Shown here: positions 1,802-58,145 of the stretch, in pieces
Layout of the letters: each line of letters begins with the position of its first letter
Position numbering within the stretch: the stretch's first letter is position 1
Assembly: GCA_964596015.1 (NCBI GenBank)
Contig: CAZQSB010000001.1
Coordinates: 48,191 to 112,190 of the forward strand
Direction of reading: 5' to 3'
Source: an uncultured bacterium
Lineage (GTDB): Bacteria > Joyebacterota > Joyebacteria > Joyebacterales > Joyebacteraceae
Length of the DNA: 64,000 bases
Program-made: the position numbers and the translations under genes
Notes under the pieces: model-generated
Seen by the model: only the letters and a program-made list of their open reading frames with translations
What the model was told of the DNA's origin: nothing
Databases searched by the model: none

Positions 1802-1826
1802 GCTTCGTGGATTCTGTCGGTTGACG

Positions 1827-18392: not shown

Positions 18393-19118
18393 TCAGATGC
18401 CCAACGCCGTCATCCAGCCGGCGGAGTCGTCTTCGTCCTCGTCGTCTTCCGGTTCGCTCTGCTGGTCCTCCGGCGGGGCCGCCTCCCCGGCGTCGACGGT
18501 GCGACCCGCCGCCTTCGACAGCTCGTGCACCCACCGGGTGGTGTCCGGAACGTCGAGCCTGAGCGCCCCTGCCTCGCGGCCGGAGAGCTTGAGCTCCAGA
18601 ACGACGCCGCCCTCGCCGCGCCTCGTCGTCGCCCCGACGACGGTCTCCGCGTCCGGCTCATCGGGCCTGAAGGGGAAGCGCGACGGCGCGCCACCGGAAC
18701 CTTCGAGAATGTAGACAGCGGCCCTCGAGAGCACGACGGCGCCGCTCTTCCTTCTGCCCGCCTCGCCGTCGGGCGAGACCGTTCTCCAGGAAGCTTCGTC
18801 GGACCGCGCAAGCATGCCCTCCCGCGAGGCGCGCTCCAGCATCTCGCTCCTGGCCCGTTCGTTTCTCACTCGCTTCACGACCTGGGTCAGCACGCCGATG
18901 AGCACCGTCGCCACATACGGGATGGCCGCCCCGGCCCTGCCGAGCTCCGAGAGATCGATGCCCTCAAGGTCGAACTCCGGAATGCCGAACCGGCCGGAAC
19001 CGGCGACGCGGTAGACGATGTACGCGAGCGCGAGAACGACGAGCGCGACGATCGCCCAGCGCTCGTCGCGTTCGTGCGCTCTCGATCCTGTTTCTCTCGG
19101 GCGCATGCCGTTCATCAT
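18393..19118 (-). CDS. Membrane protein, function unknown (two N-terminal TM segments, acidic tail)
   Basis: WAIVALVVLALAYIVY and IPYVATVLIGVLTQVV. Possible bacterial PH-like middle region. C-terminus EDQQSEPEDDEDEDD. Packed tightly between trpS and the mutase gene. Confidence 0.6.
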   Translation of the reverse strand: MMNGMRPRETGSRAHERDERWAIVALVVLALAYIVYRVAGSGRFGIPEFDLEGIDLSELGRAGAAIPYVATVLIGVLTQVVKRVRNERARSEMLERASREGMLARSDEASWRTVSPDGEAGRRKSGAVVLSRAAVYILEGSGGAPSRFPFRPDEPDAETVVGATTRRGEGGVVLELKLSGREAGALRLDVPDTTRWVHELSKAAGRTVDAGEAAPPEDQQSEPEDDEDEDDSAGWMTALGI

Positions 19119-19121
19119 GAC

Positions 19122-32854: not shown

Positions 32855-34210
32855 CTAGAGCTCGGGCGGCGCGGGGATGAGCCCTTCCTTCATCAGGACC
32901 TCGGTCTGAGACCGCGCCTCCCTGATCTTCTTCTCGGCCATCTCGTACAGCTCATCGCGCGACATTGTAACACGAGCGACGCCCTGCTCAATGGCCTTCA
33001 TGCCGACTGCGGTCGCTTCCCTGGGGAAGACCTCCCACTCCGTCATGTCCGGGACGATGTACTCCTCGTGGATTCCCTTGTCCTCGGCGCACTTGGCGAG
33101 TTCCTCGGCGGCGGCGATGCACATCTCGTCGGTGATGGTCTTCGCCATCACATCGAGGGCGCCGCGGAAGATAGCCGGGAAGCCGATGGAGTTGTTGACC
33201 TGGTTGGGGAAGTCGGAACGGCCGGTCGCGACGATGCGCGCGCCCGCCTCCCTGGCCTCCCACGGCCAGATCTCCGGGACCGGGTTGGCGCAGACGAAGA
33301 CGATCGCGTCCTTCGCCATGCCCTCGATCCACTCCTTCTTGACCGTATCGGGGCCCGGCTTCGAGAGGGCGATGAGCATGTCTGCGCCCTTCATGGCGTC
33401 GGCCGGGGTGCCGACGAGGTTCTCCTCGTTGGTCATCTGCGCCAGCTCCCACTTCTCCTTGTAGTCCGGCAGGTACTCATCCTTCCGGCCTTCGTGGAGG
33501 GTGCCCTTGCTGTCGCACATGATGATCTTACCCGGATCGGCGCCCGCGCTGATGAGGAGGTTCGCGATGCGCACATTCGATGCGCCCGCGCCGATCATGG
33601 CGATCCTGACCTTCCCGAACTCCTTGCCGACGACTTTGACCGCGTTGATGGCGCCCGCGACCGTGACGGCGGCCGTGCCCTGCTGGTCGTCATGCCACAC
33701 CGGGATGTCGAGCTCTTCGCGGAGTTCCTTCAACACACGGAAGCACTTCGGCTGCGAGATGTCCTCGAGGTTGATGCCGCCGAACGCCGGAGAGATGAGC
33801 TTCGTCGTCTCGATGAGAACGTCGGGGTCCTTCGTGTCGACGGCGATCGGCACCGCGTCCACGCCGCCCAGGTACTTGAAGAGGAGCGCCTTGCCCTCCA
33901 TCACGGGCAGGCTGGCGTGGGGCCCGATGTCGCCGAGACCGAGGACGCGCGTGCCGTCGGTCACCACGGCGACGGTGTTCTTCTTGTTCGTGTGCTCGTA
34001 GACCTTCTCGGGATTCGCATGGATGTCCTTGCAGGGCGCCGCAACGCCGGGCGTGTACCAGATGGAGAAGTCGTCGAGGCTTCGCACGACGCACTTCGGT
34101 ACGACCTGGTACTTGCCGCCGTAGAAGGGATGAAGAACCATAGCGTCGTGGCTCGGCTTCTCCGCCTTCTTGACGAGTTCCTCCTTGGACATCTTCTTCA
34201 TCTCTGCCAC
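32855..34210 (-). CDS. NAD(P)-dependent malic enzyme (no PTA-like domain)
   Basis: VAVVTDGTRVLGLGDIGPHASLPVMEGKALLFKYLGGVDAVPI, INLEDISQPKCF and MIGAGASNVRIANLL. GTG at 34210 or ATG at 34201. Confidence 0.92.
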   Translation of the reverse strand: MAEMKKMSKEELVKKAEKPSHDAMVLHPFYGGKYQVVPKCVVRSLDDFSIWYTPGVAAPCKDIHANPEKVYEHTNKKNTVAVVTDGTRVLGLGDIGPHASLPVMEGKALLFKYLGGVDAVPIAVDTKDPDVLIETTKLISPAFGGINLEDISQPKCFRVLKELREELDIPVWHDDQQGTAAVTVAGAINAVKVVGKEFGKVRIAMIGAGASNVRIANLLISAGADPGKIIMCDSKGTLHEGRKDEYLPDYKEKWELAQMTNEENLVGTPADAMKGADMLIALSKPGPDTVKKEWIEGMAKDAIVFVCANPVPEIWPWEAREAGARIVATGRSDFPNQVNNSIGFPAIFRGALDVMAKTITDEMCIAAAEELAKCAEDKGIHEEYIVPDMTEWEVFPREATAVGMKAIEQGVARVTMSRDELYEMAEKKIREARSQTEVLMKEGLIPAPPEL

Positions 34211-34281: not shown

Positions 34282-34319
34282 GAAACGAAAACGGGCGCGT
34301 CCCGTTCCGGGCGCGCCCG
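34282..34319 (-). terminator. Canonical rho-independent terminator closing the hdr/frd-like operon
   Basis: Minus strand: CGGGCGCG-N12-CGCGCCCG followed by TTTTCGTTTC. It starts 4 nt after the stop at 34323. Confidence 0.7.
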
Positions 34320-34322
34320 CGA

Positions 34323-34802
34323 TCACATCCATTCGTTCTCGCGCACGTGCGAACCGAACTCCTCGCGGATGATCTGAGCGACGAGCCGGGGGACGGCTTC
34401 CCTCACGGCCTCGCGTTCCTCCTCGGGACCTCCCCCGCCGGCGACCTCGATGGCGTAGATGGAGATCTCGTTCGGGAGCCAGGAGCCCTTCCCCTCGTCG
34501 ACCATGACCTTCGCCCGATACTCGGTGTCGTGGTCCGAGTCGGCCATGCGCTCGAGCTCGAGACCCGAGAGACCGAGCCTCCGGAGCTCGCTCACGTCGC
34601 CGTCCCCGGTCCGCACGCAGTCGACGACGACGACCTTGTCATAGCCGGCCGCCAGCCCGAAGAGGTCGAAGCCCAGCGCGGTCGTCTCGACGATGTCGAC
34701 CCGCGGATCCCGGAGAACGGAGTGAACGCCGCGGGCGACGGCGAACCCCACGTCGGGGGAACACTCCCTCTCACCTGACAGTCCAACGATGAGTGTCTTC
34801 AT
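34323..34802 (-). CDS. Hydrogenase maturation protease (A31)-like protein, divergent
   Basis: MKTLIVGLSGERECSPDVGFAVA...DIVETTALGFDLF...VVVVDCV...DSDHD. This parallels the HybD/HycI pattern (GxGN..DDGxG, DGGT, D, H) with substitutions. Confidence 0.55.
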   Translation of the reverse strand: MKTLIVGLSGERECSPDVGFAVARGVHSVLRDPRVDIVETTALGFDLFGLAAGYDKVVVVDCVRTGDGDVSELRRLGLSGLELERMADSDHDTEYRAKVMVDEGKGSWLPNEISIYAIEVAGGGGPEEEREAVREAVPRLVAQIIREEFGSHVRENEWM

Positions 34803-34866
34803 TGTCGTGGCTGCCCCCCATCCCATCACCGTCCGGCCGTCGTCCACGTTCACGACCGAAGCCTCG

Positions 34867-36495
34867 CTAGCTCAGGACCTTGATGCGGTGCTCGACCGTC
34901 TCCTCGCGACGGTAGTCCGGGAGGAGTATCGGCGACTTGCGCTTCTTCGGGACTCTCGCGCCCTTGAGCTCCTCGTGGTAGCTCTTGAGGTGCTCGAGCG
35001 AGAGCTTGCCCTGCCGCTTCATTGACGCCGCACGCTCGGCGGCCGCCAGACCGGCCCTCCTGCCGAAGACGACGACATCGAGAAGCGAGTTGCCCATCAG
35101 GCGGTTCGTCCCGTGGACGCCGCCCGCCACCTCGCCGGCGGCGTAGAGATTCTTGACCTTCGTCTCGCCTGTCGCGTCGATCTCGAGACCGCCGTTCTGG
35201 TAGTGCTGTGTCGGGTAGATGAGGATCGGCTCGGTGGCCAGGTCGATACCGAAGCGCTCGTACTGGCGGTACATGGCCGGGAGCCGGTTCTTGACCGTGC
35301 CCTCGCCGTGCTTCTGTTCGATGACGACGGTGTCGAGCCAGACGGCGGGCTGTCCTGATGGCGTCACGACGCCCTTTTCGCGCCCCAGACACTCGCGGAT
35401 GATGGCGGCGGCCTCGACGTCGCGGGTCTCGAGCTCGTAGACGAAGCGGTTGCCCTCAGCGTTCACGATCTGTCCGCCGATGCTCCTGGTCTTCTCGGTG
35501 ACGAGGAGCCCCAGAAGCTGCTCGGGATAGGCTGCACCCGTAGGGTGGTACTGGATGGTGTCGAGGAACGCCAGCGGCGCGCCGGCGCGGTAGCCGAGAA
35601 CCAGCCCGTCGCCCGTGGCGCCGTAGTGGTTCGAGGTCGGGAAGCCCATCACGTGAAGCCGCCCGCCTCCGCCGGTCGCCAGAATGACGGTCTTCGCCCG
35701 GACGATGACGAACTCCTCGGTCTCCATGTTATAGAGAACGGCGCCCGTGACCTTCTTCCCGTCGGTCAGAAGCTCGTAAGCCGCGGCGAACTCCATGAAG
35801 GGAACCTCGCGGTTCTGGATCTCGTCCTTCAGGGTCTTCATGATCTCGCCGCCGGTGTAGTCGCGGCACGCGTGCATCCGCTTCCGCGACGTACCGCCGC
35901 CATGGATCGTGACCATCGTGCCGTCCGGCTCCTTGTCGAACATCACGCCCAGCTCTTCAAGCCACGACAGCACCGGCGGCGCGTCCATCACGAGAGCCTC
36001 GACGAGGTCGGGGTCGTTCTTGTAGTGGCCGCCGCCCATGACATCGAGATAGTGGATGGCCGGCGAGTCGTTCTCCTTGTCGGCCCCCTGGATGCCGCCC
36101 TGGGCCATGACGGTGTTCGAGTCGCCGAGACGGAGCTTCGTGACCAGCAGGACATCGGCGCCCTGCTCCTGCGCGACGAGCGCTGCCGCCGCGCCGGCGC
36201 CTCCGCCTCCGACGACGAGGACGTCGACGTCGTAGTCGACCTCCGAGACGTCGAACTTCGATGGCTCGATGACGCTGTACGCCTCGAAGATCTTAGCGTA
36301 CTCCTTCGGCGTCCTCTGGCCCTTCGAGGGGCCGATCTTGATCTCGGCGAATACCTCGTCGCGGTAGTCCGGGTGATACCCCTCGAGGAGCTTCTGGCGC
36401 TCTTCGGGCGACATCAGAGGGATCTCCTCCGTGAGCCGGTGCTCGCGGGTCGCCTCGAGACGCTTGATCGATTCGCGCATGCTCTCCGGATACAC
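34867..36495 (-). CDS. Fumarate reductase/succinate dehydrogenase flavoprotein-like FAD protein (non-covalent FAD type)
   Basis: VLVVGGGGAGAAAAL, SNTVMAQGG (Asn where the histidyl-FAD His sits), IQYHPTG, TEKTRSIGG and TNRLMGNSLLDVVVFGRRAG. About 75-aa N-terminal extension. Confidence 0.85.
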   Translation of the reverse strand: MYPESMRESIKRLEATREHRLTEEIPLMSPEERQKLLEGYHPDYRDEVFAEIKIGPSKGQRTPKEYAKIFEAYSVIEPSKFDVSEVDYDVDVLVVGGGGAGAAAALVAQEQGADVLLVTKLRLGDSNTVMAQGGIQGADKENDSPAIHYLDVMGGGHYKNDPDLVEALVMDAPPVLSWLEELGVMFDKEPDGTMVTIHGGGTSRKRMHACRDYTGGEIMKTLKDEIQNREVPFMEFAAAYELLTDGKKVTGAVLYNMETEEFVIVRAKTVILATGGGGRLHVMGFPTSNHYGATGDGLVLGYRAGAPLAFLDTIQYHPTGAAYPEQLLGLLVTEKTRSIGGQIVNAEGNRFVYELETRDVEAAAIIRECLGREKGVVTPSGQPAVWLDTVVIEQKHGEGTVKNRLPAMYRQYERFGIDLATEPILIYPTQHYQNGGLEIDATGETKVKNLYAAGEVAGGVHGTNRLMGNSLLDVVVFGRRAGLAAAERAASMKRQGKLSLEHLKSYHEELKGARVPKKRKSPILLPDYRREETVEHRIKVLS

Positions 36496-36512
36496 TTCTC
36501 TTCGCCTCCTCG

Positions 36513-37193
36513 TTACCGGGGCTCCATGTCCCTGTTGTTGTAGAGCTCCTTGAGCTCCTTTGTCTTCGTCTTCTTGAGCTTGTCGATGTCCTTCTTGTAC
36601 TTGCCCTTCTCGAGCTCACCGACGCGCTTCTCGAGATGCTTCGACTTCTCGGCGACGTGACGCGAGTAGAGGCGACGCGCGAGAAGGCCGACGTTGTACT
36701 GGACGATCTCGGCCGGGCAGCGCGACGCGCACAGCCCGCACAGGATGCAGTCGAAGGAGAGGTCGGCCGTCTTGGCGATGTCCCCCCTGAGCGCGGTCTG
36801 GATGTACTCCATCACCTCGATGTCCTGGGGGCAGGCCTTCGTGCAGGCGTTGCATGCCAGACAGCGATAGACCTCGGGATAGAGCTTGAGGACGGTCTCG
36901 GCGTTGGCCTCGAGGTCCTCGATGTCGTACGTGGCCTTGTTGCCGGGGTAGAACGGCAGCTCCGTGAGGTACATCCCGTCCTGGACGACCTCCTGGCACG
37001 CGAGCCCCACCTTCAGGCGGTAGTCGTCCTTCGTGCGGTACACGGTCCCGCAGGCTCCGCAGAAGGCGCCCCTGCATCCGCACCCGCGCACCAGCCTGTA
37101 CCCGGCGTACTCCATGGCCTTCATGATGGTGAGGTTCGCGGGAACCTCGTACTGCTTGCCCATCACGTAGATGGTGACCATCTCCTCTGCCAT
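36513..37193 (-). CDS. FrdB/SdhB-like iron-sulfur protein (2Fe-2S plus two 4Fe-4S motifs)
   Basis: GCGCRGAFCGACG...LAC, CLACNACTKACP and CILCGLCASRCP. RBS GGAGG precedes the ATG at 37193. Confidence 0.85.
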   Translation of the reverse strand: MAEEMVTIYVMGKQYEVPANLTIMKAMEYAGYRLVRGCGCRGAFCGACGTVYRTKDDYRLKVGLACQEVVQDGMYLTELPFYPGNKATYDIEDLEANAETVLKLYPEVYRCLACNACTKACPQDIEVMEYIQTALRGDIAKTADLSFDCILCGLCASRCPAEIVQYNVGLLARRLYSRHVAEKSKHLEKRVGELEKGKYKKDIDKLKKTKTKELKELYNNRDMEPR

Positions 37194-37247
37194 CGTGTCG
37201 GTCCTCCCTCGCGTCGGGCCGCACTCGGGATGCGGCACGCGGCGGTT

Positions 37248-37820
37248 CTATCGCTTCGCCTTGGCGCTCTTCTTCCCGGTGGTCTTCTTCCCGGACGCCC
37301 TCTTCGCGCCCGGCTTCTTTCTCGGTCTCTTCTTCTCGCTGCTCTTCGCGCTCTTCTTCGCGTCCGTCGCCGTTTTCGGCTTCCTCTCGACGTCCTCTCT
37401 GTCGCGTGGAAGCGTGCCCTCATCGAGCGTGAGCGGGCCGAGTTCCTTCACGTCCTTCACGAAGTCGTTCATCACGCGGACGAGTTTGTCGCCCTCGGCG
37501 GCGGAGATCCACTCGAGCCTCAGCCGGTCGGGCTCGATGCCGAAGTCCTCGAGCATCCTCTTCAGGAGCGAGATCCTCCGCATCGTCTTGTAGTTGCCGT
37601 CCTGGTAGTGGCAGTCGCCGGGATGGCACCCGCCGATGAGGACGGCGTCCGCTCCCTCGCGGAACGCCCACAGAATGTGCTGGGGATCGACCCTGCCGCT
37701 GCAGTTGACCCGCACCACAACGCCGTTCGGCGGATACTGCTTCCTCGACGTCCCGGCGAGGTCTGCTCCGGCGTACGTACACCACTTGCAGAAGAAGCAG
37801 ACGATTCTCGGTTCGAACAT
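37248..37820 (-). CDS. mvhD: MvhD/FlpD-like (methyl-viologen-reducing hydrogenase delta subunit family) protein with Lys-rich tail
   Basis: IVCFFCKWCTYAGADLAG...VRVNCSGRVDPQHILWAF..GADAVLIGGCHPGDCHY. The C-terminal ~50 aa read KPKTATDAKKSAKSSEKKRPRKKPGAKRASGKKTTGKKSAKAKR. RBS GGAGG. Confidence 0.85.
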   Translation of the reverse strand: MFEPRIVCFFCKWCTYAGADLAGTSRKQYPPNGVVVRVNCSGRVDPQHILWAFREGADAVLIGGCHPGDCHYQDGNYKTMRRISLLKRMLEDFGIEPDRLRLEWISAAEGDKLVRVMNDFVKDVKELGPLTLDEGTLPRDREDVERKPKTATDAKKSAKSSEKKRPRKKPGAKRASGKKTTGKKSAKAKR

Positions 37821-37822
37821 CT

Positions 37823-39781
37823 CTATTCCTCCAGGGCCGCCGTGACCATCTTGTAGATCTGGTCGTCCGTGAGGTTCCTCTGTGTCGCCGATCCTGACGG
37901 ACACGCCGCGATGCAGGCGCCGCATCCCTCGCAGATCGCTTCCTGGATCCTCGCGACCTTCTTCTCGTCATCGAACTCGGCGGCGTCGTAGGGACAGACC
38001 GACACGCAGACGCGGCATCCCGCGCAGGTGTCCTCGTCGATCACAGCGATGATGGGCTCTCTGTGGTACTCCTCCTCGGCGAAGAGAGCGGCGACCTTGC
38101 TCGCCGCGCCCGACGCCTGGGCGACGGCTTCCGGGATGTCCTTCGGCCCCTGCGCCGCGCCTGCGAGGTAGAAGCCCGGCGCCAGGCTCTCGACCGGGCG
38201 GAGCTTCGGATGGGCCTCGGAGAGGAAGCCCCACTCGTCCGTGTGGATCTTGAGCTTGTTCGCGAGCTCGCGGGCGGCGCCGCTGGGGACCATGCCGAGG
38301 CCGAGCACGACCATGTCGGCCGCTATCTCGACCTTCTTCCCCGTCAGGGTGTCGACGCCCCATACGTAGACCTTGCCGTCCTCTTCGAAGATCTTCGAGA
38401 CCTTGCCGCGGATGTAGAGGACGTCGTCCTCCTCGGAGGCGCGCTGGTAAAACTCCTCGTATCCCTTCCCCGCGGTCCGGACGTCCATATAGAAGAGATA
38501 CGCCTGCCCCTCATGCACTTTGTGCTTGTAGAGCATCGCGTGCTTCGTGAGGTACATGCAGCAGACCTTCGAGCAGTACGGAAGGTGCATCTCCGGGTCG
38601 CGCGAGCCGACGCACGTCAGGAAGACGACCTCGTTCGGCACCTGGCCGTCGGACGGCCTTCTCACCTCCCCGCCCGTGGGTCCCGAGGCGGAGAGCAGCC
38701 GCTCGAACTGCAGGCTGTCGACGACGTCCGGGATCGAGCCTCCGCCGTACTCGCCGATGTTGGTGATGGGATAGAGGTCGTAGCCGGTCGCTACGACGAT
38801 GGCGCCGACCTCCTCCTCAACGAACTCGTCCTTCAACTCGTAGTCGACGGCGTCGACCGGGCAGATCTTCTCGCAGATGCCGCACTTGCCCTTCTGGAAG
38901 TAGAGGCAGTGCTCGGCGTCGAGGACAGGCTTGTTGGGAACCGCCTGCGGGAACGGCGTGTAGATGGCCTTGCGGTCGGCGAGGCCCTCCTCGAACTCGG
39001 ACGGCGTCTTCGAGGGGCACTTCTCCGAGCAGAGCCCGCAGCCCGTGCAGACGTCGCGGTTCACGTAGGCCGTCTTCTTCCTGATCCTGACCTTGAAGTT
39101 GCCGACGTAGCCCCCGACATCGTCGACCTCGCTGTAGGTCATGAGCTTGATCCTGGGGTGCTGCGAGACCTCGACCATCTTCGGCGTGAGAATGCACTGC
39201 GAGCAGTCGAGGGTCGGGAACGTCTCTGAGAGCTGGGCCATGTGCCCGCCGATCGACGGGCTCTTCTCCACGAGGATGACCTCGTAGCCGGCGTTCGCGA
39301 TGTCGAGCGCAGCCTGGATGCCGGCCACTCCCCCGCCGACGACGAGCGCGCGGTGCGTCATCGGGACCGAGATGGGCTCGAGCGCCTCGTCGAGCTTCGC
39401 CTTCTCGACCATAGAGCGGATAATGCGGATGGCCTTCGCGGTCGCGGCGTCTTTGTCCTTCTGATGCACCCAGCTGCACTGCTCACGGATGTTCGCTATC
39501 TCGACGCGGTAGGGGTTGAGGCTTGATGCGGTCGCGGCCTTCCTGAAGGTCGCCTCATGGAGCGTCGGCGAGCAGGCCGCGACGATCACGCCCGTGAGAT
39601 CGTGTTCCCTGATCGCTTCCTTGACCAGGTTCTGGCCCGGGTCGGAGCACATGTACGTGTAGTCGGTCGAGTACACGACCCCGGGGTACCGGGACAGCTC
39701 CTCCGCAACCCGCTTCGTGTCGACCACGCCGGCGATGTTCGAGCCGCAGTGGCAGACGAAGACCCCGATGCGAGAATCCAT
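37823..39781 (-). CDS. hdrA: Heterodisulfide reductase subunit A-like flavoprotein
   Basis: IGVFVCHCGSNIAG, ALVVGGGVAGIQAALDIANAGYEVILVEK, TLDCSQCILTPKM and FLTCVGSRD, plus four ferredoxin-type CxxCxxCxxxCP motifs. The track ORF start at 40678 is an artefact. TGATG junction with hdrB. Confidence 0.92.
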   Translation of the reverse strand: MDSRIGVFVCHCGSNIAGVVDTKRVAEELSRYPGVVYSTDYTYMCSDPGQNLVKEAIREHDLTGVIVAACSPTLHEATFRKAATASSLNPYRVEIANIREQCSWVHQKDKDAATAKAIRIIRSMVEKAKLDEALEPISVPMTHRALVVGGGVAGIQAALDIANAGYEVILVEKSPSIGGHMAQLSETFPTLDCSQCILTPKMVEVSQHPRIKLMTYSEVDDVGGYVGNFKVRIRKKTAYVNRDVCTGCGLCSEKCPSKTPSEFEEGLADRKAIYTPFPQAVPNKPVLDAEHCLYFQKGKCGICEKICPVDAVDYELKDEFVEEEVGAIVVATGYDLYPITNIGEYGGGSIPDVVDSLQFERLLSASGPTGGEVRRPSDGQVPNEVVFLTCVGSRDPEMHLPYCSKVCCMYLTKHAMLYKHKVHEGQAYLFYMDVRTAGKGYEEFYQRASEEDDVLYIRGKVSKIFEEDGKVYVWGVDTLTGKKVEIAADMVVLGLGMVPSGAARELANKLKIHTDEWGFLSEAHPKLRPVESLAPGFYLAGAAQGPKDIPEAVAQASGAASKVAALFAEEEYHREPIIAVIDEDTCAGCRVCVSVCPYDAAEFDDEKKVARIQEAICEGCGACIAACPSGSATQRNLTDDQIYKMVTAALEE

Positions 39782-40701
39782 CACCCCTCCCTGGCGGCGC
39801 ACCTCGCGGCCAGCACGGGCCGCGGGTCGACGTAGTTGTCCGTGAAGTCGAGGTACTTCTCGTCGATGCCGAGCGCCACGCCCAGAAGCTGCGTGAAGTA
39901 GATCACGGGGATCTTCTCGAACCCCCTGACGCGTTCGGCAAGCTCTTCCTGCTTTCTGTCGAGGTTGTACTGACACAGAGGACACGTCGTCACGATGACG
40001 TCGGCGTCGCGCTTCAAGGCCGAGCCGACGACGGTCCTCGAGCACGAGACGGCGATCTCCTCGTCGTTGACGACCTGAAACCCGCCGCAGCACTCGCTCT
40101 TCATGGGAAAGTCGACGACCTCGCATCCCATGGCCTCGAGGAGCCCCTCGAAGATGGTCGGCTGCTCGGGGTCGTCGAACTCCAGCTCCTTCGCCGGACG
40201 AAGGAGCATGCACCCGTAGTAGGGCGCCACCCTGAGATCGCCGAGGTGCTCCTTCACGCGCCTGGCGACCTCGTCGTAGCCGACGACGTCCCGCAGGAAC
40301 TCGATGTAGTGCAGCACGTCGACCTGCCCGACGTAGTCCTCGCCCGTGAAGCTCTCGATCGACTCGCGTCGCTCGGTGTCGGCCCTGAGGAAGAGGTTCG
40401 CCTTCTCGCGCTTCTCCTCGTCCTCCTTCATGACCCTGTTGGCGCGCTTGAGGACGTGGTAGCAGAACGAGCAGAGCGTCACGACCTTGTCGCCCATCCT
40501 CGAGGCGTACGAGAGGTTCCTGACCGGCGCCAGGATCTCCATGACGCTGTCGGTCACGAGCGGGAAGACCGCGCCGCAGCACGTCCAGATCGGCATCTCG
40601 TCGAGTTCGAAGCCGAGGGCCTTCGCGCTCTCCTTCGCCGACATATCGAAGTCCCGGGCCCTCTCGTGCAGCGTGCATCCCGGGTAGTAAGGGATCTTCA
40701 T
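39781..40701 (-). CDS. hdrB: Heterodisulfide reductase subunit B-like (two CCG domains)
   Basis: MKIPYYPGCTL, IWTCCGAV, YYGCML, SECCGGF and TTCPLCQYNL. RBS GGAGG. Confidence 0.9.
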   Translation of the reverse strand: MKIPYYPGCTLHERARDFDMSAKESAKALGFELDEMPIWTCCGAVFPLVTDSVMEILAPVRNLSYASRMGDKVVTLCSFCYHVLKRANRVMKEDEEKREKANLFLRADTERRESIESFTGEDYVGQVDVLHYIEFLRDVVGYDEVARRVKEHLGDLRVAPYYGCMLLRPAKELEFDDPEQPTIFEGLLEAMGCEVVDFPMKSECCGGFQVVNDEEIAVSCSRTVVGSALKRDADVIVTTCPLCQYNLDRKQEELAERVRGFEKIPVIYFTQLLGVALGIDEKYLDFTDNYVDPRPVLAARCAAREG

Positions 40702-40720
40702 TCCTGCCTCCGGTCCTTCC

Positions 40721-41137
40721 TCAGCCGTTGAGCTTCCTGAGCGCACCGACGACGCCCATCTGCGGAGCGTCCGTCACCATCACCGCCGTCACCTCGTCGG
40801 CGTCCACCACCGGCCTGGAGAGGCGCTGTCTCAGGACGAGCGCGCGAAGCGCGTCGCAGATGCTCGAGAATTCGACGCCCCTGGGACAGCGCGACGCGCA
40901 CTGGAGGCACGAGGCGCAGATCCAGATCGTCTTCGACTCGAGAACGGGCTGGATCTGTCCGAGCTGGAGCAGATGGATCACCTCGCTGGGGATGATGTCC
41001 ATCTCCTCGACGACGGGGCATCCGGCGGAGCATCTGCCGCACTGATAGCACGCGCCGAGGTTCTGGCCCGACAGGTCGACGATCCTCCGGATGACCTCAT
41101 CCTTGATGGCCGCTCCGGTCAGTGTAATCCTCATCAT
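40721..41137 (-). CDS. hdrC: Heterodisulfide reductase subunit C-like (2x 4Fe-4S)
   Basis: CYQCGRCSAGCP and CASCLQCASRCP. Start uncertain: ATGATG at 41137/41134 lies very close to GGAGG, and an alternative ATG lies at 41185. Confidence 0.85.
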   Translation of the reverse strand: MMRITLTGAAIKDEVIRRIVDLSGQNLGACYQCGRCSAGCPVVEEMDIIPSEVIHLLQLGQIQPVLESKTIWICASCLQCASRCPRGVEFSSICDALRALVLRQRLSRPVVDADEVTAVMVTDAPQMGVVGALRKLNG

Positions 41138-41236: not shown

Positions 41237-41691
41237 GCTACGCGAACCGGTCAACGAGCGCGCCGTCGGAACATCGTTCGTTCTTGAGAAGGCCTGCTGT
41301 GGGCTTCCCCCCGCGCCCGCACGGCACCGATCGACCCCGCCTCTTCCCTGAAAACCGACCCAGCCGTGAATCTCGACTGGCTCGCCATTCATCTACTCGA
41401 CAAAGGGTCACCGCAGTGCCCGCTGTGCGGCGCCGCGGTGACCAGACTCGCAAGAGGGTACTAGAGAAAGACCCCGGGTGTCAACCTGGAAACGCCCCGC
41501 GCTTGGCCATCTCTCGGGTCCCGCGGCGGTTCCCGGCACGGCGTTCCTGCAGCGCGGTTCCGGTGACGGAGCGTGGTCCGGCTGAACCACCCGTCAGTTT
41601 CGGACGGGGCACCGTCTTCGGAGCGCGGCCGGTCGAAGAGCCGGAGGGCGTCGCCGCGCAGGGGGTCCCGGGCGGCCCGGGGACGGTCCGG

Positions 41692-41772: not shown

Positions 41773-42801
41773 ATGGACCAGAGGTCCCTGAGCGCGACGG
41801 CCCGGGCGCTCGTCGCCGCCGGGAGGGGCATCCTTGCGGCCGACGAGAGCACGGGCACCATCAGGAAGCGCCTCGCCGGCATCGACGTCGAGTCGACCGA
41901 GGAGAACCGCCGGAGATACCGGGAGCTCCTCTTCTCGACGGAGGGCGTCGAGAGCTTCATCTCGGGCGTCATCCTGTTCGACGAGACCATCAGACAGAGG
42001 AACGACGACGGTGTCCCCTTCCCCGAGCTTCTCTCGAAGCGCGGGATCATCCCGGGTATCAAGGTGGACCGCGGAGCGAAGCCGCTGGCGGGGCACGACG
42101 GGGAGAAGGTCACGGAGGGCCTGGACGGACTTCGGGAACGCCTCGATGAGTACCGCGGGCTCGGCGCCGGGTTCGGAAAATGGCGGGCCGTCATCACCAT
42201 CGGGGACGGCATCCCGACGCGCGCGTGCATCGACGCGAACGCCCACGCGCTCGCGCGCTACGCGGCGCTCTGCCAGGAAGCGGGCCTCGTGCCCATCGTG
42301 GAGCCCGAGGTCCTGATGGACGGCACGCATTCCATGGCCCGCTGCGAGGAGGTGACGGAGGCGACCCTTCGGAGCGTTTTCGCCGCGCTCGCCGCGCAGG
42401 ATGTCCTCCTCGAGGGAACGCTTCTCAAGCCCAACATGGTCCTCCCGGGCAAGGAGTCCGGCGAACCGGCGACCCCCGAACGGATAGCCGAGGCGACCGT
42501 GGGCTGCTTCAGACGGGTCGTGCCCGCCGCCGTTCCCGGGATCGTCTTCCTGTCGGGCGGCCAGTCGCCCGAGGAGGCGACGGCGAACCTGAACGCGATG
42601 AACGCGATGAACGCGATGGGCGAACATCCCTGGCAGCTCAGTTTCTCATACGGTCGGGCGCTTCAGCAGCCTGTGCTCCAGGCCTGGCGGGGCGATCCAT
42701 CGTATGCCGACGCGGCCCGGAAGGCCTTCTACCGCAGAGCCGAGCTCAACGGAGCCGCCCGGTACGGACGGTACGAGCCGGCGATGGAGCATTCGGGCTA
42801 G
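41773..42801 (+). CDS. fba: Class I fructose-bisphosphate aldolase
   Basis: GILAADESTGTIRKRL, ISGVILFDETI, LLKPNMV (Schiff-base Lys region) and LSFSYGRALQ. Confidence 0.92.
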   Translation: MDQRSLSATARALVAAGRGILAADESTGTIRKRLAGIDVESTEENRRRYRELLFSTEGVESFISGVILFDETIRQRNDDGVPFPELLSKRGIIPGIKVDRGAKPLAGHDGEKVTEGLDGLRERLDEYRGLGAGFGKWRAVITIGDGIPTRACIDANAHALARYAALCQEAGLVPIVEPEVLMDGTHSMARCEEVTEATLRSVFAALAAQDVLLEGTLLKPNMVLPGKESGEPATPERIAEATVGCFRRVVPAAVPGIVFLSGGQSPEEATANLNAMNAMNAMGEHPWQLSFSYGRALQQPVLQAWRGDPSYADAARKAFYRRAELNGAARYGRYEPAMEHSG

Positions 42802-51709: not shown

Positions 51710-51885
51710 TTCCTCCCATGGCGGAGCTTCCGAACGCGCCTCTCGGCGTTCGGACAGGAAACTGCTTCAGGTTGCTCATCCGAGAGCGTCGCGGGTTCTT
51801 CTGCGCGCCTCGGTCGCGTTTCATGAGTTTATCCTGCAACGATTGTGCCGAAGGACGAGCGCCACTCATTCTGACGAAACGCGGT

Positions 51886-51915
51886 TTGACGAACCGTGGG
51901 AGATGCGGCTAGAGT
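51886..51915 (+). promoter_or_regulatory. Sigma70-type promoter for the repeat-protein/HEAT operon
   Basis: TTGACG, 18-nt spacer, TAGAGT. This is the same -10 hexamer as the fba promoter. Confidence 0.4.
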
Positions 51916-52019
51916 CGCCTGTCGCACATGCGACGCGCGGTCGGGCGTGCTCCCGCGGAGCCCGTCCGCCGCGCAGGACCCCGGGAGCACGTCGAAAGGC
52001 CCCACACACGGGAGGAACC

Positions 52020-57197: not shown

Positions 57198-57398
57198 CAA
57201 TGCGTATTGCGGGAGACTCTCGCGGGAGTTCTCCAAGACGATGGTGATTGAGGTAATTGGCAGGCTGCGACGGCCTTGCCGGTCGGCGCGGCGCTCGCGT
57301 CCGCGTGATCGCGAGCACATGGCGAACCGTCCTGCGGTGGTGGGTGGCGACCAGGTGACGCATCGTGCTCGGCACCACGGGGAAAGGAGAGGGACGCA

Positions 57399-58061: not shown

Positions 58062-58145
58062 CAACGAAGCCGAGACACTCGGCTGAACAGGATTTGAGTG
58101 GAGAGGGAAGGCGTCCCTGCGGGGACCGGGCAAAAGGAGAGGAAG

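What the first reader, a model, noticed from the sequence alone, without database searches (positions are those of the whole stretch)
34323..41137. Single operon joining HdrCBA-MvhD to a soluble fumarate-reductase-like FrdBA pair, with no hydrogenase or other obvious electron-input module
Seven co-directional genes are tightly packed, with a TGATG junction between hdrB and hdrA and a 2-nt gap between hdrA and mvhD. The unit is bounded upstream by 630 nt of non-coding DNA and downstream by a canonical terminator (34282-34319). The genes are hdrC, hdrB (two CCG motifs), hdrA, mvhD, an FrdB-like Fe-S protein, an FrdA-like flavoprotein and an A31-protease-like gene. In methanogens MvhD bridges the MvhAG hydrogenase to HdrABC. 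Methanogen thiol:fumarate reductase TfrB fuses an FrdB-like Fe-S domain to an HdrB-like CCG domain. Here those parts are separate genes in one operon together with HdrA, the bifurcating flavoprotein. This suggests a flavin-based electron-bifurcating or confurcating complex acting on fumarate/succinate or a related dicarboxylate. A malic enzyme gene follows immediately after the terminator. I know of no characterised complex with this composition.
Basis: partly seen in the sequence, partly recalled or inferred. Interest (0 to 1): 0.65.

Follow-up and report, generated by a model that had tools for sequence, protein, structure and literature searches.

The report
Hdr-coupled soluble fumarate reductase operon
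A seven-gene operon in an Eisenbacteria-like genome links the electron-splitting heterodisulfide-reductase machinery to a soluble fumarate reductase; the pairing is real, widespread in anaerobes and already noted in two papers, but this copy lacks the usual NADH or hydrogen input module, and no such enzyme has been purified.

Summary
Seven co-directional minus-strand genes (hdrC, hdrB, hdrA, mvhD, an SdhB-like Fe-S gene, an FrdA-like flavoprotein gene, a HycI-like gene) lie between a 635-nt intergenic region and a strong terminator.

The flavoprotein keeps every dicarboxylate-binding and catalytic residue of E. coli FrdA. It lacks the covalent-FAD histidine and the C-terminal domain, and it has a conserved 88-residue N-terminal extension. 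It falls below the cut-offs for TfrA, NadB and SdhA/FrdA.

The Fe-S/flavoprotein pair occurs in about 600 or more species-representative genomes. Hdr genes lie upstream in 37 of 51 informative loci. Fumarase, malate dehydrogenase, malic enzyme or an AAE exporter is present in 49 of 80 loci. Input modules differ: FlxABC (26 loci), MvhAG hydrogenase (4 to 6), or none, as here.

The Flx form has been described genomically as the "succinate operon" of Pseudoclostridium thermosuccinogenes, and tfrAB genes next to flx-hdr were described in rTCA clusters. Neither has been characterised biochemically.

The window is therefore a donor-less variant of a known but untested kind. Its HycI-like gene belongs to a subfamily, found so far in Eisenbacteria-type contigs, that has lost two of the three nickel ligands. 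The electron donor remains unknown.

The parts
41455..41484 (-). Putative sigma-70-type promoter: TTGACA at 41484-41479, 18-nt spacer, TACCCT at 41460-41455.
   Evidence: The TTGAC and TAnnnT blocks are conserved in 4 of the 5 aligned upstream regions (window, L082, L081, L002). Sequence read. Function is inferred. The consensus scan did not report this site.
41406..41443 (-). Conserved inverted repeat GGTCACCGC-N20-GCGGTGACC, just downstream of the putative promoter. It could be an operator or a 5' mRNA hairpin.
   Evidence: The GTCACCG...CGGTGAC arms are conserved, with small differences, in the window, L082, L081 and L002; the L005 copy is the most divergent. Sequence read. Function not tested.
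40721..41137 (-). hdrC: 138 aa, two [4Fe-4S] motifs.
   Evidence: Fer4_8 and Fer4_17 hits; TIGR03290 HdrC 60.5 bits against a cut-off of 160. Cys at 30/33/36/40 and 74/77/80/84.
39781..40701 (-). hdrB: 306 aa, two complete CCG motifs (ligands of the non-cubane [4Fe-4S] clusters).
   Evidence: PF02754, 73.7 bits, two stretches. TIGR03288 178.5 bits and NF042965 SdhE 177.5 bits. 149 bits to methanogen HdrB 8RVV_B. Cys pattern.
37823..39781 (-). hdrA: 652 aa, the bifurcating FAD/Fe-S subunit.
   Evidence: 731 bits, residues 3-647, to M. wolfeii HdrA 5ODC_A. NF040770 HdrA2 829 bits against a cut-off of 1100.
37248..37820 (-). mvhD/flxD-type [2Fe-2S] subunit, 190 aa, with a Lys-rich tail of about 55 residues.
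   Evidence: PF02662 178 bits over residues 6-128. Matches the C-terminal MvhD domain of HdrA2 at 172 bits. The tail is absent from L081 and L082, whose products are 145 and 143 aa.
36513..37193 (-). SdhB/TfrB-like Fe-S subunit, 226 aa: one 2Fe-2S domain and two 4-Cys [4Fe-4S] motifs.
   Evidence: Fer2_4, Fer4_9 and Fer4_10 hits. Weak matches to TfrB and dhsB. Cys at 38/40/45/48/66, 111/114/117/121 and 149/152/155/159. Adjacent to the flavoprotein gene in 71 of 80 loci.
34867..36495 (-). Soluble fumarate-reductase-type flavoprotein, 542 aa. Non-covalent FAD, no Succ_DH_flav_C domain, conserved 88-residue N-terminal extension.
   Evidence: PF00890, 277 bits. Best NCBIfam hit is TfrA at 355 bits, against a cut-off of 718. 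FrdA catalytic residues are conserved. Foldseek best matches are E. coli FrdA and M. smegmatis Sdh1.
34323..34802 (-). HycI/HybD-like gene (159 aa, or 176 aa from the GTG at 34853), probably catalytically degenerate.
   Evidence: PF01750 22.9 bits against 23. The subfamily has about 120 protein clusters, most on contigs whose lengths match those carrying the flavoprotein. Only 1 of the 3 metal-ligand columns is invariant.
34282..34319 (-). Intrinsic terminator ending the operon.
   Evidence: -33.9 kcal/mol, z = -3.25, followed by a U-tract.
32855..34210 (-). Malic enzyme gene after the terminator. It is a functional neighbour, not part of the operon.
   Evidence: PF00390 and PF03949. Malic enzyme is also linked to the pair in 9 other loci. 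It is absent at this position in L081 and L082.

Best explanation
The operon encodes a cytoplasmic complex in which a canonical bifurcating HdrA, with MvhD, HdrC and HdrB, is wired to a two-subunit soluble fumarate reductase.

Proposed electron path:
- Electrons reaching the HdrA flavin are split.
- One goes uphill to ferredoxin.
- The other goes downhill through HdrC, the HdrB CCG clusters and the three clusters of the SdhB-like subunit to the non-covalent FAD of the flavoprotein, which reduces fumarate to succinate.
- Fumarate (E0' about +30 mV, textbook value) thus replaces, or sits directly behind, the heterodisulfide (about -140 mV) as the high-potential acceptor.

Relatives feed the flavin through FlxABC (NADH) or MvhAG (H2), both docked on the MvhD/FlxD subunit. 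The Eisenbacteria-type operon in the window has lost that module, so its donor is unknown. The candidates are:
- a module encoded elsewhere that docks on MvhD;
- a diffusible hydride carrier used directly by HdrA plus MvhD, as F420H2 is by Methanosarcina HdrA2B2C2;
- reduced ferredoxin alone.

Shown: gene content, cofactor motifs, catalytic residues, and conserved linkage to Hdr and to C4-dicarboxylate genes. Inferred: complex formation, direct electron transfer, bifurcation and direction.
For: 1. Every FrdA substrate or catalytic residue is present and invariant in the family:
- His232 -> H317
- Thr244/Glu245 -> T333/E334
- Arg287 -> R358, within the motif LETRD
- His355 -> H431
- Arg390 -> R465

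2. Structural and profile matches favour FrdA/SdhA and TfrA over NadB.
- The best Foldseek matches are E. coli FrdA and M. smegmatis Sdh1; NadB ranks 34th.
- The best profile hit is TfrA.

3. Genomic context in the 80 related loci points to fumarate:
- class I fumarase alpha/beta in 34 loci
- malate dehydrogenase in 17
- AAE-family permease in 18
- malic enzyme in 9
- 2-oxoacid:ferredoxin oxidoreductase in 10
- at least one C4-dicarboxylate gene in 49 of 80

4. Linkage to Hdr is conserved. Of 51 loci with at least 7 kb upstream, 37 carry hdrA or hdrB on the same strand. The linkage spans Bacillota, Anaerolineae, Acetothermia, Thermoplasmata and Methanofastidiosum.

5. Input modules vary while Hdr and the reductase pair stay constant, which fits a modular bifurcating enzyme.
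- FlxCBA is present in 26 loci.
- MvhG/MvhA is present in L001, L041, L062 and L071, and mvhA alone lies next to hdrC at the cut ends of L045 and L048.
- L001 reads malic enzyme-fumA-fumB-hdrC-hdrB-hdrA-mvhD-mvhG-mvhA-FeS-flavoprotein.

6. The Hdr parts look functional. HdrA matches the solved bifurcating HdrA over its full length. HdrB has two intact CCG motifs.

7. The pair resembles known CCG-containing fumarate enzymes. Fe-S protein plus HdrB covers the two halves of TfrB, and HdrB scores equally well against the CCG subunit SdhE of methylmenaquinol:fumarate reductase.

8. Published proposals reach the same conclusion for the Flx form. In P. thermosuccinogenes the operon is highly expressed and changes about 4-fold between 1% and 20% CO2 (PMC7282089). 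The rTCA clusters are described in PMC6315080.

9. There is a precedent for an HdrA plus MvhD unit working without a separate donor module: M. acetivorans HdrA2B2C2 (PMC5296606). The window's HdrA and MvhD score best against the HdrA2 model.
Against: - No biochemical data exist for any member. Complex formation between the Hdr and reductase parts is inferred from gene linkage only.
- Fourteen of the 51 informative loci have the Fe-S/flavoprotein pair without nearby hdr genes, for example the WOR-3 and Syntrophomonadaceae loci. The reductase can therefore work with other partners.
- The window has no donor module among the ORFs scanned, so bifurcation cannot be specified for this organism.
- Intact CCG motifs are equally compatible with real thiol/disulfide chemistry at HdrB.
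- The AlphaFold model is only moderate (pLDDT 71).
- Sequence identity to the published P. thermosuccinogenes proteins could not be tested. Only gene order and gene sizes match.
Confidence: 0.6

Rival explanations
1. Thiol-mediated coupling, i.e. two enzymes rather than one wire. HdrABC/MvhD reduces an unidentified disulfide (a small molecule or a DsrC-like protein). A TfrAB-like activity, formed by the Fe-S/flavoprotein pair together with a CCG protein, then re-oxidises the thiols to reduce fumarate.
For: - Both CCG motifs of HdrB are intact.
- TfrAB of Methanothermobacter is a thiol:fumarate reductase, and TfrA is the best-scoring characterised family.
- Both publications considered thiol shuttling.
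Against: - Bacteria of these phyla are not known to make CoM or CoB (general knowledge).
- The Fe-S subunit carries no CCG domain of its own. The only CCG protein in the operon is HdrB, so oxidation and reduction of the thiol would occur at the same site.
- hdrB sits immediately next to the Fe-S gene in many loci (L015, L017, L041, L045, L048, L062). That suggests one contiguous electron path.
Confidence: 0.15
2. Reverse, confurcating operation. The complex oxidises succinate to fumarate and uses reduced ferredoxin to pull electrons up to a mid-potential acceptor (NAD(P)+ or H+). This would solve the energetically hard succinate-oxidation step without a membrane.
For: - Flavin-based bifurcating enzymes are in principle reversible (PMC5861303).
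- The pair occurs in Syntrophomonadaceae and other likely syntrophs, next to kor, fumarase and malic enzyme genes.
- FrdA and SdhA active sites are the same, so sequence does not fix the direction.
Against: - The mean of +30 mV and about -450 mV is about -210 mV (textbook potentials). That is unfavourable for NAD+ or H+ reduction except at extreme product ratios.
- In the only organism with physiological data, the operon accompanies succinate production.
- AAE-type exporter genes accompany the operon in 18 loci.
Confidence: 0.1
3. No bifurcation in this lineage. With the donor module lost, the complex is a simple reduced-ferredoxin:fumarate (or NAD(P)H:fumarate) oxidoreductase, and HdrA serves only as an entry wire.
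For: - There is no Flx, Mvh or Fdh module in the window or in four syntenic relatives.
- HdrA2B2C2 can use reduced ferredoxin alone as donor.
- The hydrogenase-protease-like gene has degenerated, which fits a long-lost hydrogenase.
Against: - HdrA and MvhD are the best-conserved proteins of the operon (85-86% identity to L002 and L005). That argues for retention of their full function.
- Dissipating about 480 mV would be wasteful.
- A donor could be encoded outside the window.
Confidence: 0.1
4. The flavoprotein is not a fumarate reductase. It acts on another substrate (L-aspartate as in NadB, or another unsaturated acid such as urocanate), and the Hdr linkage serves that reaction.
For: - All family-specific NCBIfam cut-offs are missed: TfrA 355 against 718, NadB 306 against 453, SdhA/FrdA 305 against 567.
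- The architecture is unusual, with an N-terminal extension and no C-terminal domain.
Against: - The full fumarate-binding set of residues is invariant.
- The position of NadB Glu121 is His198. I assigned this by eye from the remembered E. coli NadB sequence; it is not a tool alignment.
- NadB has no Fe-S partner (general knowledge).
- Fumarase, malate dehydrogenase and malic enzyme genes are the dominant neighbours.
Confidence: 0.05

Closest known systems
'Succinate operon' of Pseudoclostridium thermosuccinogenes: fumarase, Flx-Hdr (7 genes), a novel 2-subunit fumarate reductase (Koendjbiharie et al. 2020, PMC7282089; preprint 10.20944/preprints201912.0288.v1, not held)
   Same: - Both have HdrB, HdrC, HdrA, an MvhD/FlxD subunit, a ~225-aa Fe-S protein and a ~535-aa flavoprotein in one operon.
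- Gene sizes in the paper's supplement (261 aa, ~108 aa, a 5.3-kb block, 225 aa, 534 aa) match the Firmicute relatives of the window's genes.
- Both are linked to C4-dicarboxylate genes.
- The proposed function is the same: bifurcation from a donor to ferredoxin and fumarate.
   Different: - The window lacks FlxA, FlxB and FlxC and has no fumarase gene nearby.
- Gene order is hdrC-hdrB rather than hdrB-hdrC.
- The window has an extra HycI-like gene.
- The window's flavoprotein is 57-62% identical to those of the Firmicute loci with this architecture; it was not compared with P. thermosuccinogenes itself.
- The published system is itself a genomic and transcriptomic proposal, not a purified enzyme.
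tfrAB-flxABCD-hdrABC-korABCD rTCA gene clusters of tubeworm symbionts and Thioflavicoccus mobilis (Rubin-Blum et al. 2019, PMC6315080)
   Same: - A TfrAB-like fumarate reductase is interspersed with Hdr genes.
- The authors proposed a complex that bifurcates electrons to fumarate reductase.
- kor genes also sit next to the pair in 10 of my loci.
   Different: - The Flx module is present there and absent here.
- The setting there is autotrophic rTCA.
- Whether those tfrAB genes belong to the same sequence family could not be tested here.
Thiol:fumarate reductase TfrAB of Methanothermobacter
   Same: - It is soluble.
- TfrA is the best-scoring characterised family for the flavoprotein (355 bits).
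- TfrB combines SdhB-like Fe-S motifs with CCG domains, which corresponds to Fe-S protein plus HdrB here.
   Different: - The score is far below the TfrA cut-off of 718.
- The match covers only TfrA model positions 6-413 of 546, so the TfrA C-terminal part is missing.
- The window protein has an 88-residue N-terminal extension instead.
- The Fe-S and CCG parts are separate genes.
- HdrA and MvhD are present.
- The window comes from a bacterial lineage, and CoM/CoB are known only from methanogen-type metabolism (general knowledge).
MvhADG-HdrABC of Methanothermococcus/Methanothermobacter (PDB 5ODC)
   Same: - HdrA matches 5ODC_A over its full length (731 bits).
- HdrB matches 5ODC_B (130 bits).
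- HdrC and MvhD are present.
- Relatives L001, L041, L062 and L071 also carry MvhG/MvhA in the same operon.
   Different: - There is no MvhA or MvhG in the window.
- An extra fumarate reductase pair is present.
- The terminal acceptor is presumed to be fumarate, not CoM-S-S-CoB.
HdrA2B2C2 of Methanosarcina acetivorans (Yan et al. 2017, PMC5296606)
   Same: - An HdrA plus MvhD unit works without a hydrogenase or Flx module.
- HdrA2 is the best NCBIfam model for both the window's HdrA (829 bits) and its MvhD (172 bits).
   Different: - HdrA and MvhD are separate genes here and fused there.
- Both scores are below the cut-off of 1100.
- F420 use is unknown for this lineage.
- The acceptor differs.
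Membrane-bound quinol:fumarate reductase and succinate dehydrogenase (E. coli FrdABCD, M. smegmatis Sdh1)
   Same: - The flavoprotein fold and the complete catalytic residue set are shared.
- These are the best structural matches, with TM about 0.6 and 30-36% identity.
- The Fe-S partner starts with a 2Fe-2S domain.
   Different: - There are no membrane anchor genes.
- The covalent-FAD His is Asn127.
- There is no Succ_DH_flav_C domain.
- Both ferredoxin-type cluster motifs in the Fe-S subunit have four Cys, so there is no 3Fe-4S motif.

Membership tests
Hdr/Flx-linked soluble fumarate reductase operon (P. thermosuccinogenes type) | Adjacent genes for a ~225-aa Fe-S protein and a ~535-aa FAD_binding_2 flavoprotein of this specific family. 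| tested here: met
   - The window pair is 226 aa and 542 aa.
- The two genes are adjacent in 71 of 80 related loci.
- Published gene sizes are 225 and 534 aa.
- Direct sequence comparison with the published proteins was not possible.
Hdr/Flx-linked soluble fumarate reductase operon (P. thermosuccinogenes type) | hdrA, hdrB, hdrC and an mvhD/flxD gene in the same operon. | tested here: met
   The arrangement is conserved in L002, L005, L081 and L082.
Hdr/Flx-linked soluble fumarate reductase operon (P. thermosuccinogenes type) | FlxA, FlxB and FlxC NADH-dehydrogenase module in the operon. | tested here: not met
   - There are only 54 nt between mvhD and the Fe-S gene.
- No Flx-like gene was found among the window ORFs scanned.
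- The module is present in 26 of 51 informative loci.
Hdr/Flx-linked soluble fumarate reductase operon (P. thermosuccinogenes type) | Linkage to C4-dicarboxylate genes (fumarase, malate dehydrogenase, exporter). | tested here: inconclusive
   - Only a malic enzyme gene is adjacent in the window, and it is missing at that place in L081 and L082.
- Across the family, 49 of 80 loci have such genes.
Bifurcating HdrABC (methanogen type) | Full-length HdrA with a thioredoxin-reductase-like FAD domain and all Fe-S domains. | tested here: met
   731 bits to 5ODC_A, residues 3-647 of the query against 4-647 of the chain.
Bifurcating HdrABC (methanogen type) | HdrB with two CX31-39CCX35-36CXXC motifs, and HdrC with two 4Fe-4S motifs. 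| tested here: met
   Cys positions; PF02754 matched in two stretches.
Bifurcating HdrABC (methanogen type) | Scores above the NCBIfam equivalog cut-offs, i.e. CoB-CoM heterodisulfide specificity. | tested here: not met
   HdrA2 829 against 1100, HdrB 178.5 against 345, HdrC 60.5 against 160.
Bifurcating HdrABC (methanogen type) | Ferredoxin reduction coupled to reduction of a high-potential acceptor. | not testable with these tools
   This needs enzyme assays.
MvhADG-HdrABC | [NiFe] hydrogenase subunits MvhA and MvhG encoded with MvhD. | tested here: not met
   - None was found among the window ORFs scanned.
- Both are present in relatives L001, L041, L062 and L071.
- The rest of the genome could not be searched.
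Thiol:fumarate reductase TfrAB | TfrA equivalog score and a full-length match. | tested here: not met
   NF004900 scores 354.8 bits against a cut-off of 718, covering model positions 6-413 of 546.
Thiol:fumarate reductase TfrAB | TfrB: SdhB-like Fe-S domain fused to two CCG domains in one polypeptide. | tested here: not met
   The Fe-S protein has no CCG domain. The CCG domains are in the separate HdrB. Weak matches to different parts of NF004898 are shown.
Quinol:fumarate reductase / succinate:quinone reductase (FrdABCD, SdhABCD) | Catalytic residues His232, Thr244, Arg287, His355 and Arg390 (E. coli FrdA numbering). | tested here: met
   H317, T333, R358, H431 and R465 are all invariant in 22 family members. 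R358 was assigned by motif (LETRD against LGPRD/LASRD), because HMMER's alignment is ambiguous at that point.
Quinol:fumarate reductase / succinate:quinone reductase (FrdABCD, SdhABCD) | Covalent FAD histidine, C-terminal Succ_DH_flav_C domain, membrane anchor subunits, and a 3Fe-4S motif in the Fe-S subunit. | tested here: not met
   - His44 is replaced by Asn127, which is invariant.
- There is no PF02910 hit.
- There are no anchor genes.
- Both cluster motifs have four Cys.
L-aspartate oxidase NadB | Equivalog score, a Glu at the amino-group-binding position (E. coli Glu121), and no Fe-S partner. | tested here: not met
   - TIGR00551 scores 306.5 against a cut-off of 452.75.
- The position is His198, invariant in the family. 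I mapped it by eye from the remembered E. coli NadB sequence, not from a tool alignment.
- An Fe-S partner is always adjacent.
- NadB structures rank 34th in Foldseek.
HybD/HycI hydrogenase maturation endopeptidase (peptidase A31) | Family score above cut-off. | tested here: inconclusive
   - The window protein scores PF01750 22.9 against 23 and TIGR00072 45.3 against 47.45.
- Relatives L002 and L005 score 27.5 and 30.7 bits.
HybD/HycI hydrogenase maturation endopeptidase (peptidase A31) | Three conserved Ni-binding ligands (Glu/Asp16, Asp62, His93 in HybD numbering; numbering from memory). | tested here: not met
   - In 27 members of the subfamily only the Asp62 equivalent (D61) is invariant.
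- The first-ligand column is P/S/A/N/E/K/V/G.
- The His column is His in about 6 of 27.
- The window copy keeps D61 and the His but has Pro at the first position.
- Canonical copies in L041, L045 and L047 keep all three.
HybD/HycI hydrogenase maturation endopeptidase (peptidase A31) | Encoded next to its [NiFe] hydrogenase large subunit. | tested here: not met
   No hydrogenase gene was found in the window or within 10 kb in L002, L005, L081 or L082. By contrast, L041 and L045 have mvhA immediately upstream of a true HycI gene.

The most novel reading that the evidence does not exclude
In the Eisenbacteria-type lineage the hydrogenase was lost from an ancestral Mvh-Hdr-fumarate reductase operon, and the remaining six proteins form a self-sufficient bifurcating (or confurcating) enzyme. 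This enzyme would take a diffusible hydride carrier such as NAD(P)H directly at HdrA/MvhD. The former hydrogenase maturation protease has lost its nickel site and would have been recruited as a structural or assembly subunit of the complex. That would be a new minimal architecture for flavin-based bifurcation, and a first case of an A31 protease fold reused outside hydrogenase maturation.
Probability: 0.15. Interest if true: 0.7.

Novelty: new variant of a known kind. Interest (0 to 1): 0.45.

Why it matters
Fumarate is a much stronger oxidant than the heterodisulfide. An Hdr-type enzyme that couples fumarate reduction to ferredoxin reduction would let fermenters and autotrophs conserve energy from succinate formation without a membrane or quinones. 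No such enzyme has been demonstrated biochemically.

The family found here is large and is about 60% identical across phyla. It includes gut Lachnospiraceae and Phascolarctobacterium, Sporomusa, Anaerolineae, WOR-3, Acetothermia, Thermoplasmata and Methanofastidiosum. A single biochemical characterisation would therefore re-annotate hundreds of genomes and could revise energy balances for succinate production and for the reductive TCA cycle.

Comparing the window's donor-less variant with the Flx and Mvh variants offers a natural experiment on how input modules are exchanged on one bifurcating core.

The window itself does not reveal a new principle. Its value is as a variant and as a pointer to an under-studied, already proposed enzyme class.

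Tried and rejected
- **Preprint.** I tried to read the 2019 preprint that first described the reductase. It is not held, so I rely on what PMC7282089 says about it and on gene coordinates in that paper's supplement.
- **Biochemical characterisation.** Searches for 'bifurcating fumarate reductase', for Flx-Hdr with fumarate, and for papers citing the preprint found nothing beyond the two genomic papers.
- **Sequence link to published proteins.** P. thermosuccinogenes and Thioflavicoccus were not among the 80 loci kept, so a direct sequence comparison was not possible.
- **Donor module.** Pfam scans of 20 further window ORFs found no hydrogenase, Flx, Fdh or Nfn gene. Looking up the window's own HycI-like protein returned only a 1.6-kb contig, so the rest of the 186-kb source contig could not be read. 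Literature on Eisenbacteria hydrogenases was uninformative.
- **Leader RNA.** Rfam found no family in the window at gathering thresholds. In the operon leader it found only a chance-level lncRNA hit, so a known riboswitch is rejected.
- **NadB reading.** Rejected on profile score, on the residue at the Glu121 position, on the presence of an Fe-S partner and on gene context.
- **Membrane-bound QFR/SQR reading.** Rejected: no anchor genes, no covalent-FAD His, no C-terminal domain.
- **Reference phylogeny.** NCBIfam bit scores were used as a proxy.
- **Multimer docking.** Only a monomer model was made, with pLDDT 71.

Full report
**1.

ORF listing, Pfam and NCBIfam scans confirm seven co-directional minus-strand genes.

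| Gene | Coordinates | Size | Key evidence |
|---|---|---|---|
| hdrC | 40721-41137 | 138 aa | two 4-Cys ferredoxin motifs |
| hdrB | 39781-40701 | 306 aa | two complete CCG motifs |
| hdrA | 37823-39781 | 652 aa | full-length match to 5ODC_A |
| mvhD | 37248-37820 | 190 aa | PF02662, 178 bits |
| Fe-S protein | 36513-37193 | 226 aa | one 2Fe-2S-type Cys group, two CxxCxxCxxxCP motifs |
| Flavoprotein | 34867-36495 | 542 aa | FAD_binding_2, 277 bits |
| HycI-like gene | 34323-34802 | 159 aa | borderline HycI scores |

- The TGATG overlap between hdrB and hdrA and the 2-nt gap between hdrA and mvhD are exactly as described. The other gaps are 19, 54, 17 and 64 nt.
- The terminator at 34319-34282 folds at -33.9 kcal/mol (z = -3.25) and is followed by a U-tract.
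- The upstream intergenic region is 635 nt, and no ORF in it has coding-like composition.
- Pfam scans of 20 further ORFs across the window found no hydrogenase, Flx, formate dehydrogenase or Nfn gene.
- The gene after the terminator is a malic enzyme.

**2. What the parts are**

*Hdr subunits.*
- HdrA is a canonical bifurcating subunit. It scores 731 bits over residues 3-647 against the solved Methanothermococcus HdrA (5ODC_A).
- HdrB scores 149 bits against methanogen HdrB. It scores equally well against the CCG subunit SdhE of methylmenaquinol:fumarate reductase.
- HdrA and MvhD score best against the HdrA2 model of Methanosarcina, in which the two are fused (829 and 172 bits).

*Flavoprotein.*
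- It belongs to the FrdA/SdhA/NadB superfamily but falls below every curated cut-off. TfrA scores 355 against 718, NadB 306 against 453, and SdhA/FrdA 305 against 567.
- It has no Succ_DH_flav_C domain.
- It has an 88-residue N-terminal extension that is conserved across the family. All 80 related loci match from residue 1 or 2, except one that starts at residue 8.
- Alignment to E. coli FrdA shows the full catalytic set: H317, T333/E334, R358, H431 and R465. All are invariant in 22 family members.
- The covalent-FAD histidine is an invariant Asn127.
- R358 was assigned from the LETRD motif, because HMMER's alignment is ambiguous there.
- An AlphaFold model is of moderate quality (pLDDT 71, pTM 0.78). 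It matches E. coli FrdA and M. smegmatis Sdh1 best, and NadB ranks 34th.

*Solved structures.* There is no close homologue of the flavoprotein or the Fe-S protein in the PDB.

**3. Related loci**

The flavoprotein's closest database relatives are 64-93% identical, 529-553 aa long apart from one partial sequence, and include MAGs named Candidatus Eisenbacteria.

The 80 loci kept are 57-79% identical to the window protein. They span WOR-3, Thermoplasmata, Methanofastidiosum, Acetothermia, Anaerolineae, Fibrobacterota and many Bacillota. The Bacillota include Lachnospiraceae, Phascolarctobacterium and the complete genome of Sporomusa rhizae.

Gene mapping gave the following:
- The Fe-S gene is adjacent to the flavoprotein gene in 71 of 80 loci.
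- Of 51 loci with at least 7 kb upstream, 37 have hdrA or hdrB on the same strand.
- Of those 51, 26 also have three genes matching FlxC, FlxB and FlxA: two ferredoxin-domain proteins and a PyrK-like FAD/NAD protein.
- Three of the 51 have only the FlxC-like gene.
- Four have [NiFe] hydrogenase small and large subunit genes. L045 and L048 also show mvhA next to hdrC at their cut ends.
- Four have Hdr genes but no donor nearby.
- Fourteen have no Hdr genes nearby.

Neighbouring genes are dominated by C4-dicarboxylate metabolism:

| Neighbour | Loci (of 80) |
|---|---|
| Class I fumarase alpha/beta | 34 |
| AAE-family permease | 18 |
| Malate dehydrogenase | 17 |
| 2-oxoacid:ferredoxin oxidoreductase | 10 |
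| Malic enzyme | 9 |

Locus L001 is especially telling. It reads malic enzyme-fumA-fumB-hdrC-hdrB-hdrA-mvhD-mvhG-mvhA-FeS-flavoprotein. That is the window's gene order with a hydrogenase inserted between mvhD and the Fe-S gene. In a neighbour-joining tree of the flavoproteins, the window, L002 and L005 form a clade next to L001 and two Thermoplasmata loci.

**4. The window's own lineage**

Four relatives with 75-79% identical flavoproteins share the seven-gene order. They are L002, L005, L081 (a 1.14-Mb contig) and L082 (a Candidatus Eisenbacteria MAG, GCA_016936055.1).
- L081 and L082 share much of the surrounding synteny with the window: thioredoxin-domain protein upstream, and sigma factor, S9 peptidase, disulfide oxidoreductase and PtsI downstream. 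L082 also shares the photolyase and DUF1722 genes.
- None of the four has Flx or hydrogenase genes within the fetched flanks.
- The malic enzyme and the class I aldolase that flank the operon in the window are absent at those positions in L081 and L082. The link to malic enzyme is therefore local to the window, although it recurs in other phyla.

**5. The HycI-like gene**

True HycI genes (40-43 bits) sit directly after mvhA in the Acetothermia/Bipolaricaulota loci L041 and L045.

The window's copy belongs to a small subfamily.
- A search of 5.8 billion proteins found only 120 clusters.
- All are 45-83% identical and 132-188 aa long. Many sit on contigs of the same lengths as those carrying the flavoprotein.

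I recalled the three nickel ligands of HybD/HycI from memory. In an alignment of 27 members, only the Asp62 equivalent (D61) is invariant.
- The first-ligand column varies (P, S, A, N, E, K, V, G).
- The histidine is present in about 6 of 27 members.
- The window copy keeps the Asp and the His but has Pro at the first position.

Other blocks and a C-terminal REEFG...W motif are well conserved. I read this as a former hydrogenase maturation protease that outlived its hydrogenase and is kept for another role. That reading is inference.

**6. What is already known**

- Koendjbiharie and co-workers described a 'succinate operon' in Pseudoclostridium thermosuccinogenes. It contains fumarase, a seven-gene Flx-Hdr complex, a two-gene fumarate reductase and a small hypothetical gene. 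[quoted passage not shown]
- Gene coordinates in their supplement give products of 261 aa, about 108 aa, a 5.3-kb block of five genes, 225 aa and 534 aa. These match the Firmicute loci in size and order. The sequences themselves could not be compared.
- Rubin-Blum and co-workers reported tfrAB interspersed with flxABCD-hdrABC and korABCD in rTCA clusters of tubeworm symbionts and Thioflavicoccus. They proposed a complex that bifurcates electrons to 2-oxoglutarate synthase and fumarate reductase (PMC6315080).
- I found no paper reporting purification or assay of such a complex.
- For the missing donor there is a precedent. M. acetivorans HdrA2B2C2 (HdrA fused to MvhD) uses F420H2 or ferredoxin without a separate donor module. 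Its authors suggested NADH for non-methanogen homologues (PMC5296606).

**7. Mechanism**

The best-supported reading is an Hdr-type flavin-based bifurcating enzyme whose high-potential arm ends in fumarate.
- The proposed path is HdrA FAD to HdrC, to the HdrB CCG clusters, to the 2Fe-2S and two 4Fe-4S clusters of the Fe-S subunit, to the non-covalent FAD, to fumarate.
- The low-potential electron goes to ferredoxin.

*Shown:* cofactor motifs, catalytic residues, conserved operon linkage, exchangeable Flx and Mvh input modules, and C4-dicarboxylate context.

*Inferred:* physical complex, direct wiring as opposed to a thiol shuttle, bifurcation, and direction.

For the window the donor is unknown. 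My rough split is:

| Candidate donor | Estimate |
|---|---|
| Module encoded elsewhere that docks on MvhD | one third |
| Direct use of a diffusible hydride carrier (HdrA2-like) | one third |
| Ferredoxin-only, non-bifurcating operation, or something else | remainder |

Rivals are thiol-mediated coupling, reverse (confurcating) succinate oxidation, non-bifurcating operation, and a different substrate. They are listed with their tests in the rival section.

**8. Verdict**

- The feature is real and well delimited.
- The claim of an undescribed composition is only partly right. The Hdr-plus-fumarate-reductase pairing has been described genomically (with Flx) but has not been characterised biochemically.
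- The window adds a donor-less variant found in Eisenbacteria-type genomes, with a degenerate HycI-like gene.
- My survey also shows an Mvh-hydrogenase variant and the breadth of the family.
- I rate it a new variant of a known kind, of moderate interest.

Noticed in passing
window 41406-41484 (-): A TTGACA / TAnnnT promoter-like pair is followed at once by a 9-bp-arm inverted repeat (GGTCACCGC-N20-GCGGTGACC). Both are conserved upstream of hdrC in four of five aligned relatives, with L005 the most divergent. The repeat could be an operator or a 5' mRNA hairpin. In the window it would leave a leader of about 310 nt.
   Followed up: partly
window 41360-41380 (-): A terminator-like hairpin (CCAGTCGAGATTCACGGCTGG followed by GTCGGTTTTC) lies inside the long leader of the operon. 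No Rfam family matches the leader. It is not obviously conserved in relatives.
   Followed up: partly
window 34323-34853 (-); alignment A3: The HycI-like gene belongs to a small subfamily, named members of which are all Eisenbacteria, that has lost two of the three nickel-ligand positions. It still keeps strongly conserved blocks and a C-terminal REEFG...W motif. It looks like a protease fold kept for a new role in an operon without a hydrogenase.
   Followed up: yes
window 37248-37415 (-) and 36513-36620 (-): MvhD carries a Lys/Arg-rich low-complexity tail of about 55 residues, and the Fe-S protein ends in a Lys-rich tail. The MvhD tail is absent in L081 and L082 (145 and 143 aa). The antisense ORF at 37171-37593 (+), which has coding-like GC3, is a composition artefact of this region.
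   Followed up: partly
L001 192-11603: An uncultured bacterium carries an 11-gene cluster: malic enzyme-fumA-fumB-hdrC-hdrB-hdrA-mvhD-mvhG-mvhA-FeS-flavoprotein. This is the most complete 'H2 to fumarate' version seen. I found no description of this Mvh-linked form in the papers searched.
   Followed up: partly
L041 7790-8164 and L045 2007-2387: A gene for a 23S rRNA-intervening-sequence protein (PF05635, 118 bits) sits between hdrC and hdrB in two Acetothermia/Bipolaricaulota operons. This is an odd insertion inside an otherwise tight Hdr cluster.
   Followed up: no
L042 1450-5943; L064 11644-14871; L003 4650-7673; L021 9576-12530: Anaerolineae, Thermoplasmata and other loci encode giant HdrA-like fusion proteins (985-1497 aa) next to the reductase pair. 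Several of these loci have only the FlxC-like gene and lack FlxA and FlxB, which points to further untyped input architectures.
   Followed up: no
L006, L012, L016, L024 (WOR-3); L025, L030, L038 (Syntrophomonadaceae and Bacillota MAGs): The Fe-S/flavoprotein pair occurs without nearby hdr genes but directly after fumA-fumB. In L025, L030 and L038 the order is kor-fumAB-malic enzyme. The reductase is therefore not obligatorily Hdr-linked.
   Followed up: partly
L081 6829-8796: In the 1.14-Mb Eisenbacteria-type contig, hdrA is called as two ORFs (390 aa and 163 aa) with a 300-nt gap. This could be a frameshift, an assembly error or a pseudogene.
   Followed up: no
window 32855-34210 (-) and 41773-42801 (+): The malic enzyme gene and the apparent class I fructose-bisphosphate aldolase gene that flank the operon are absent at these positions in the syntenic relatives L081 and L082. 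Both look like lineage-specific insertions around a conserved core. The aldolase was identified from its sequence by eye, not by a scan.
   Followed up: partly
window 51639-53903 (+), 57309-58799 (+), 3-1826 (-), 18393-19121 (-): Several long ORFs with coding-like GC3 have no Pfam match at E <= 1e-5. They include a 754-aa ORF and two adjacent ORFs of about 240 aa that lie upstream of a 1518-aa ORF (58930-63483), which was not scanned.
   Followed up: no
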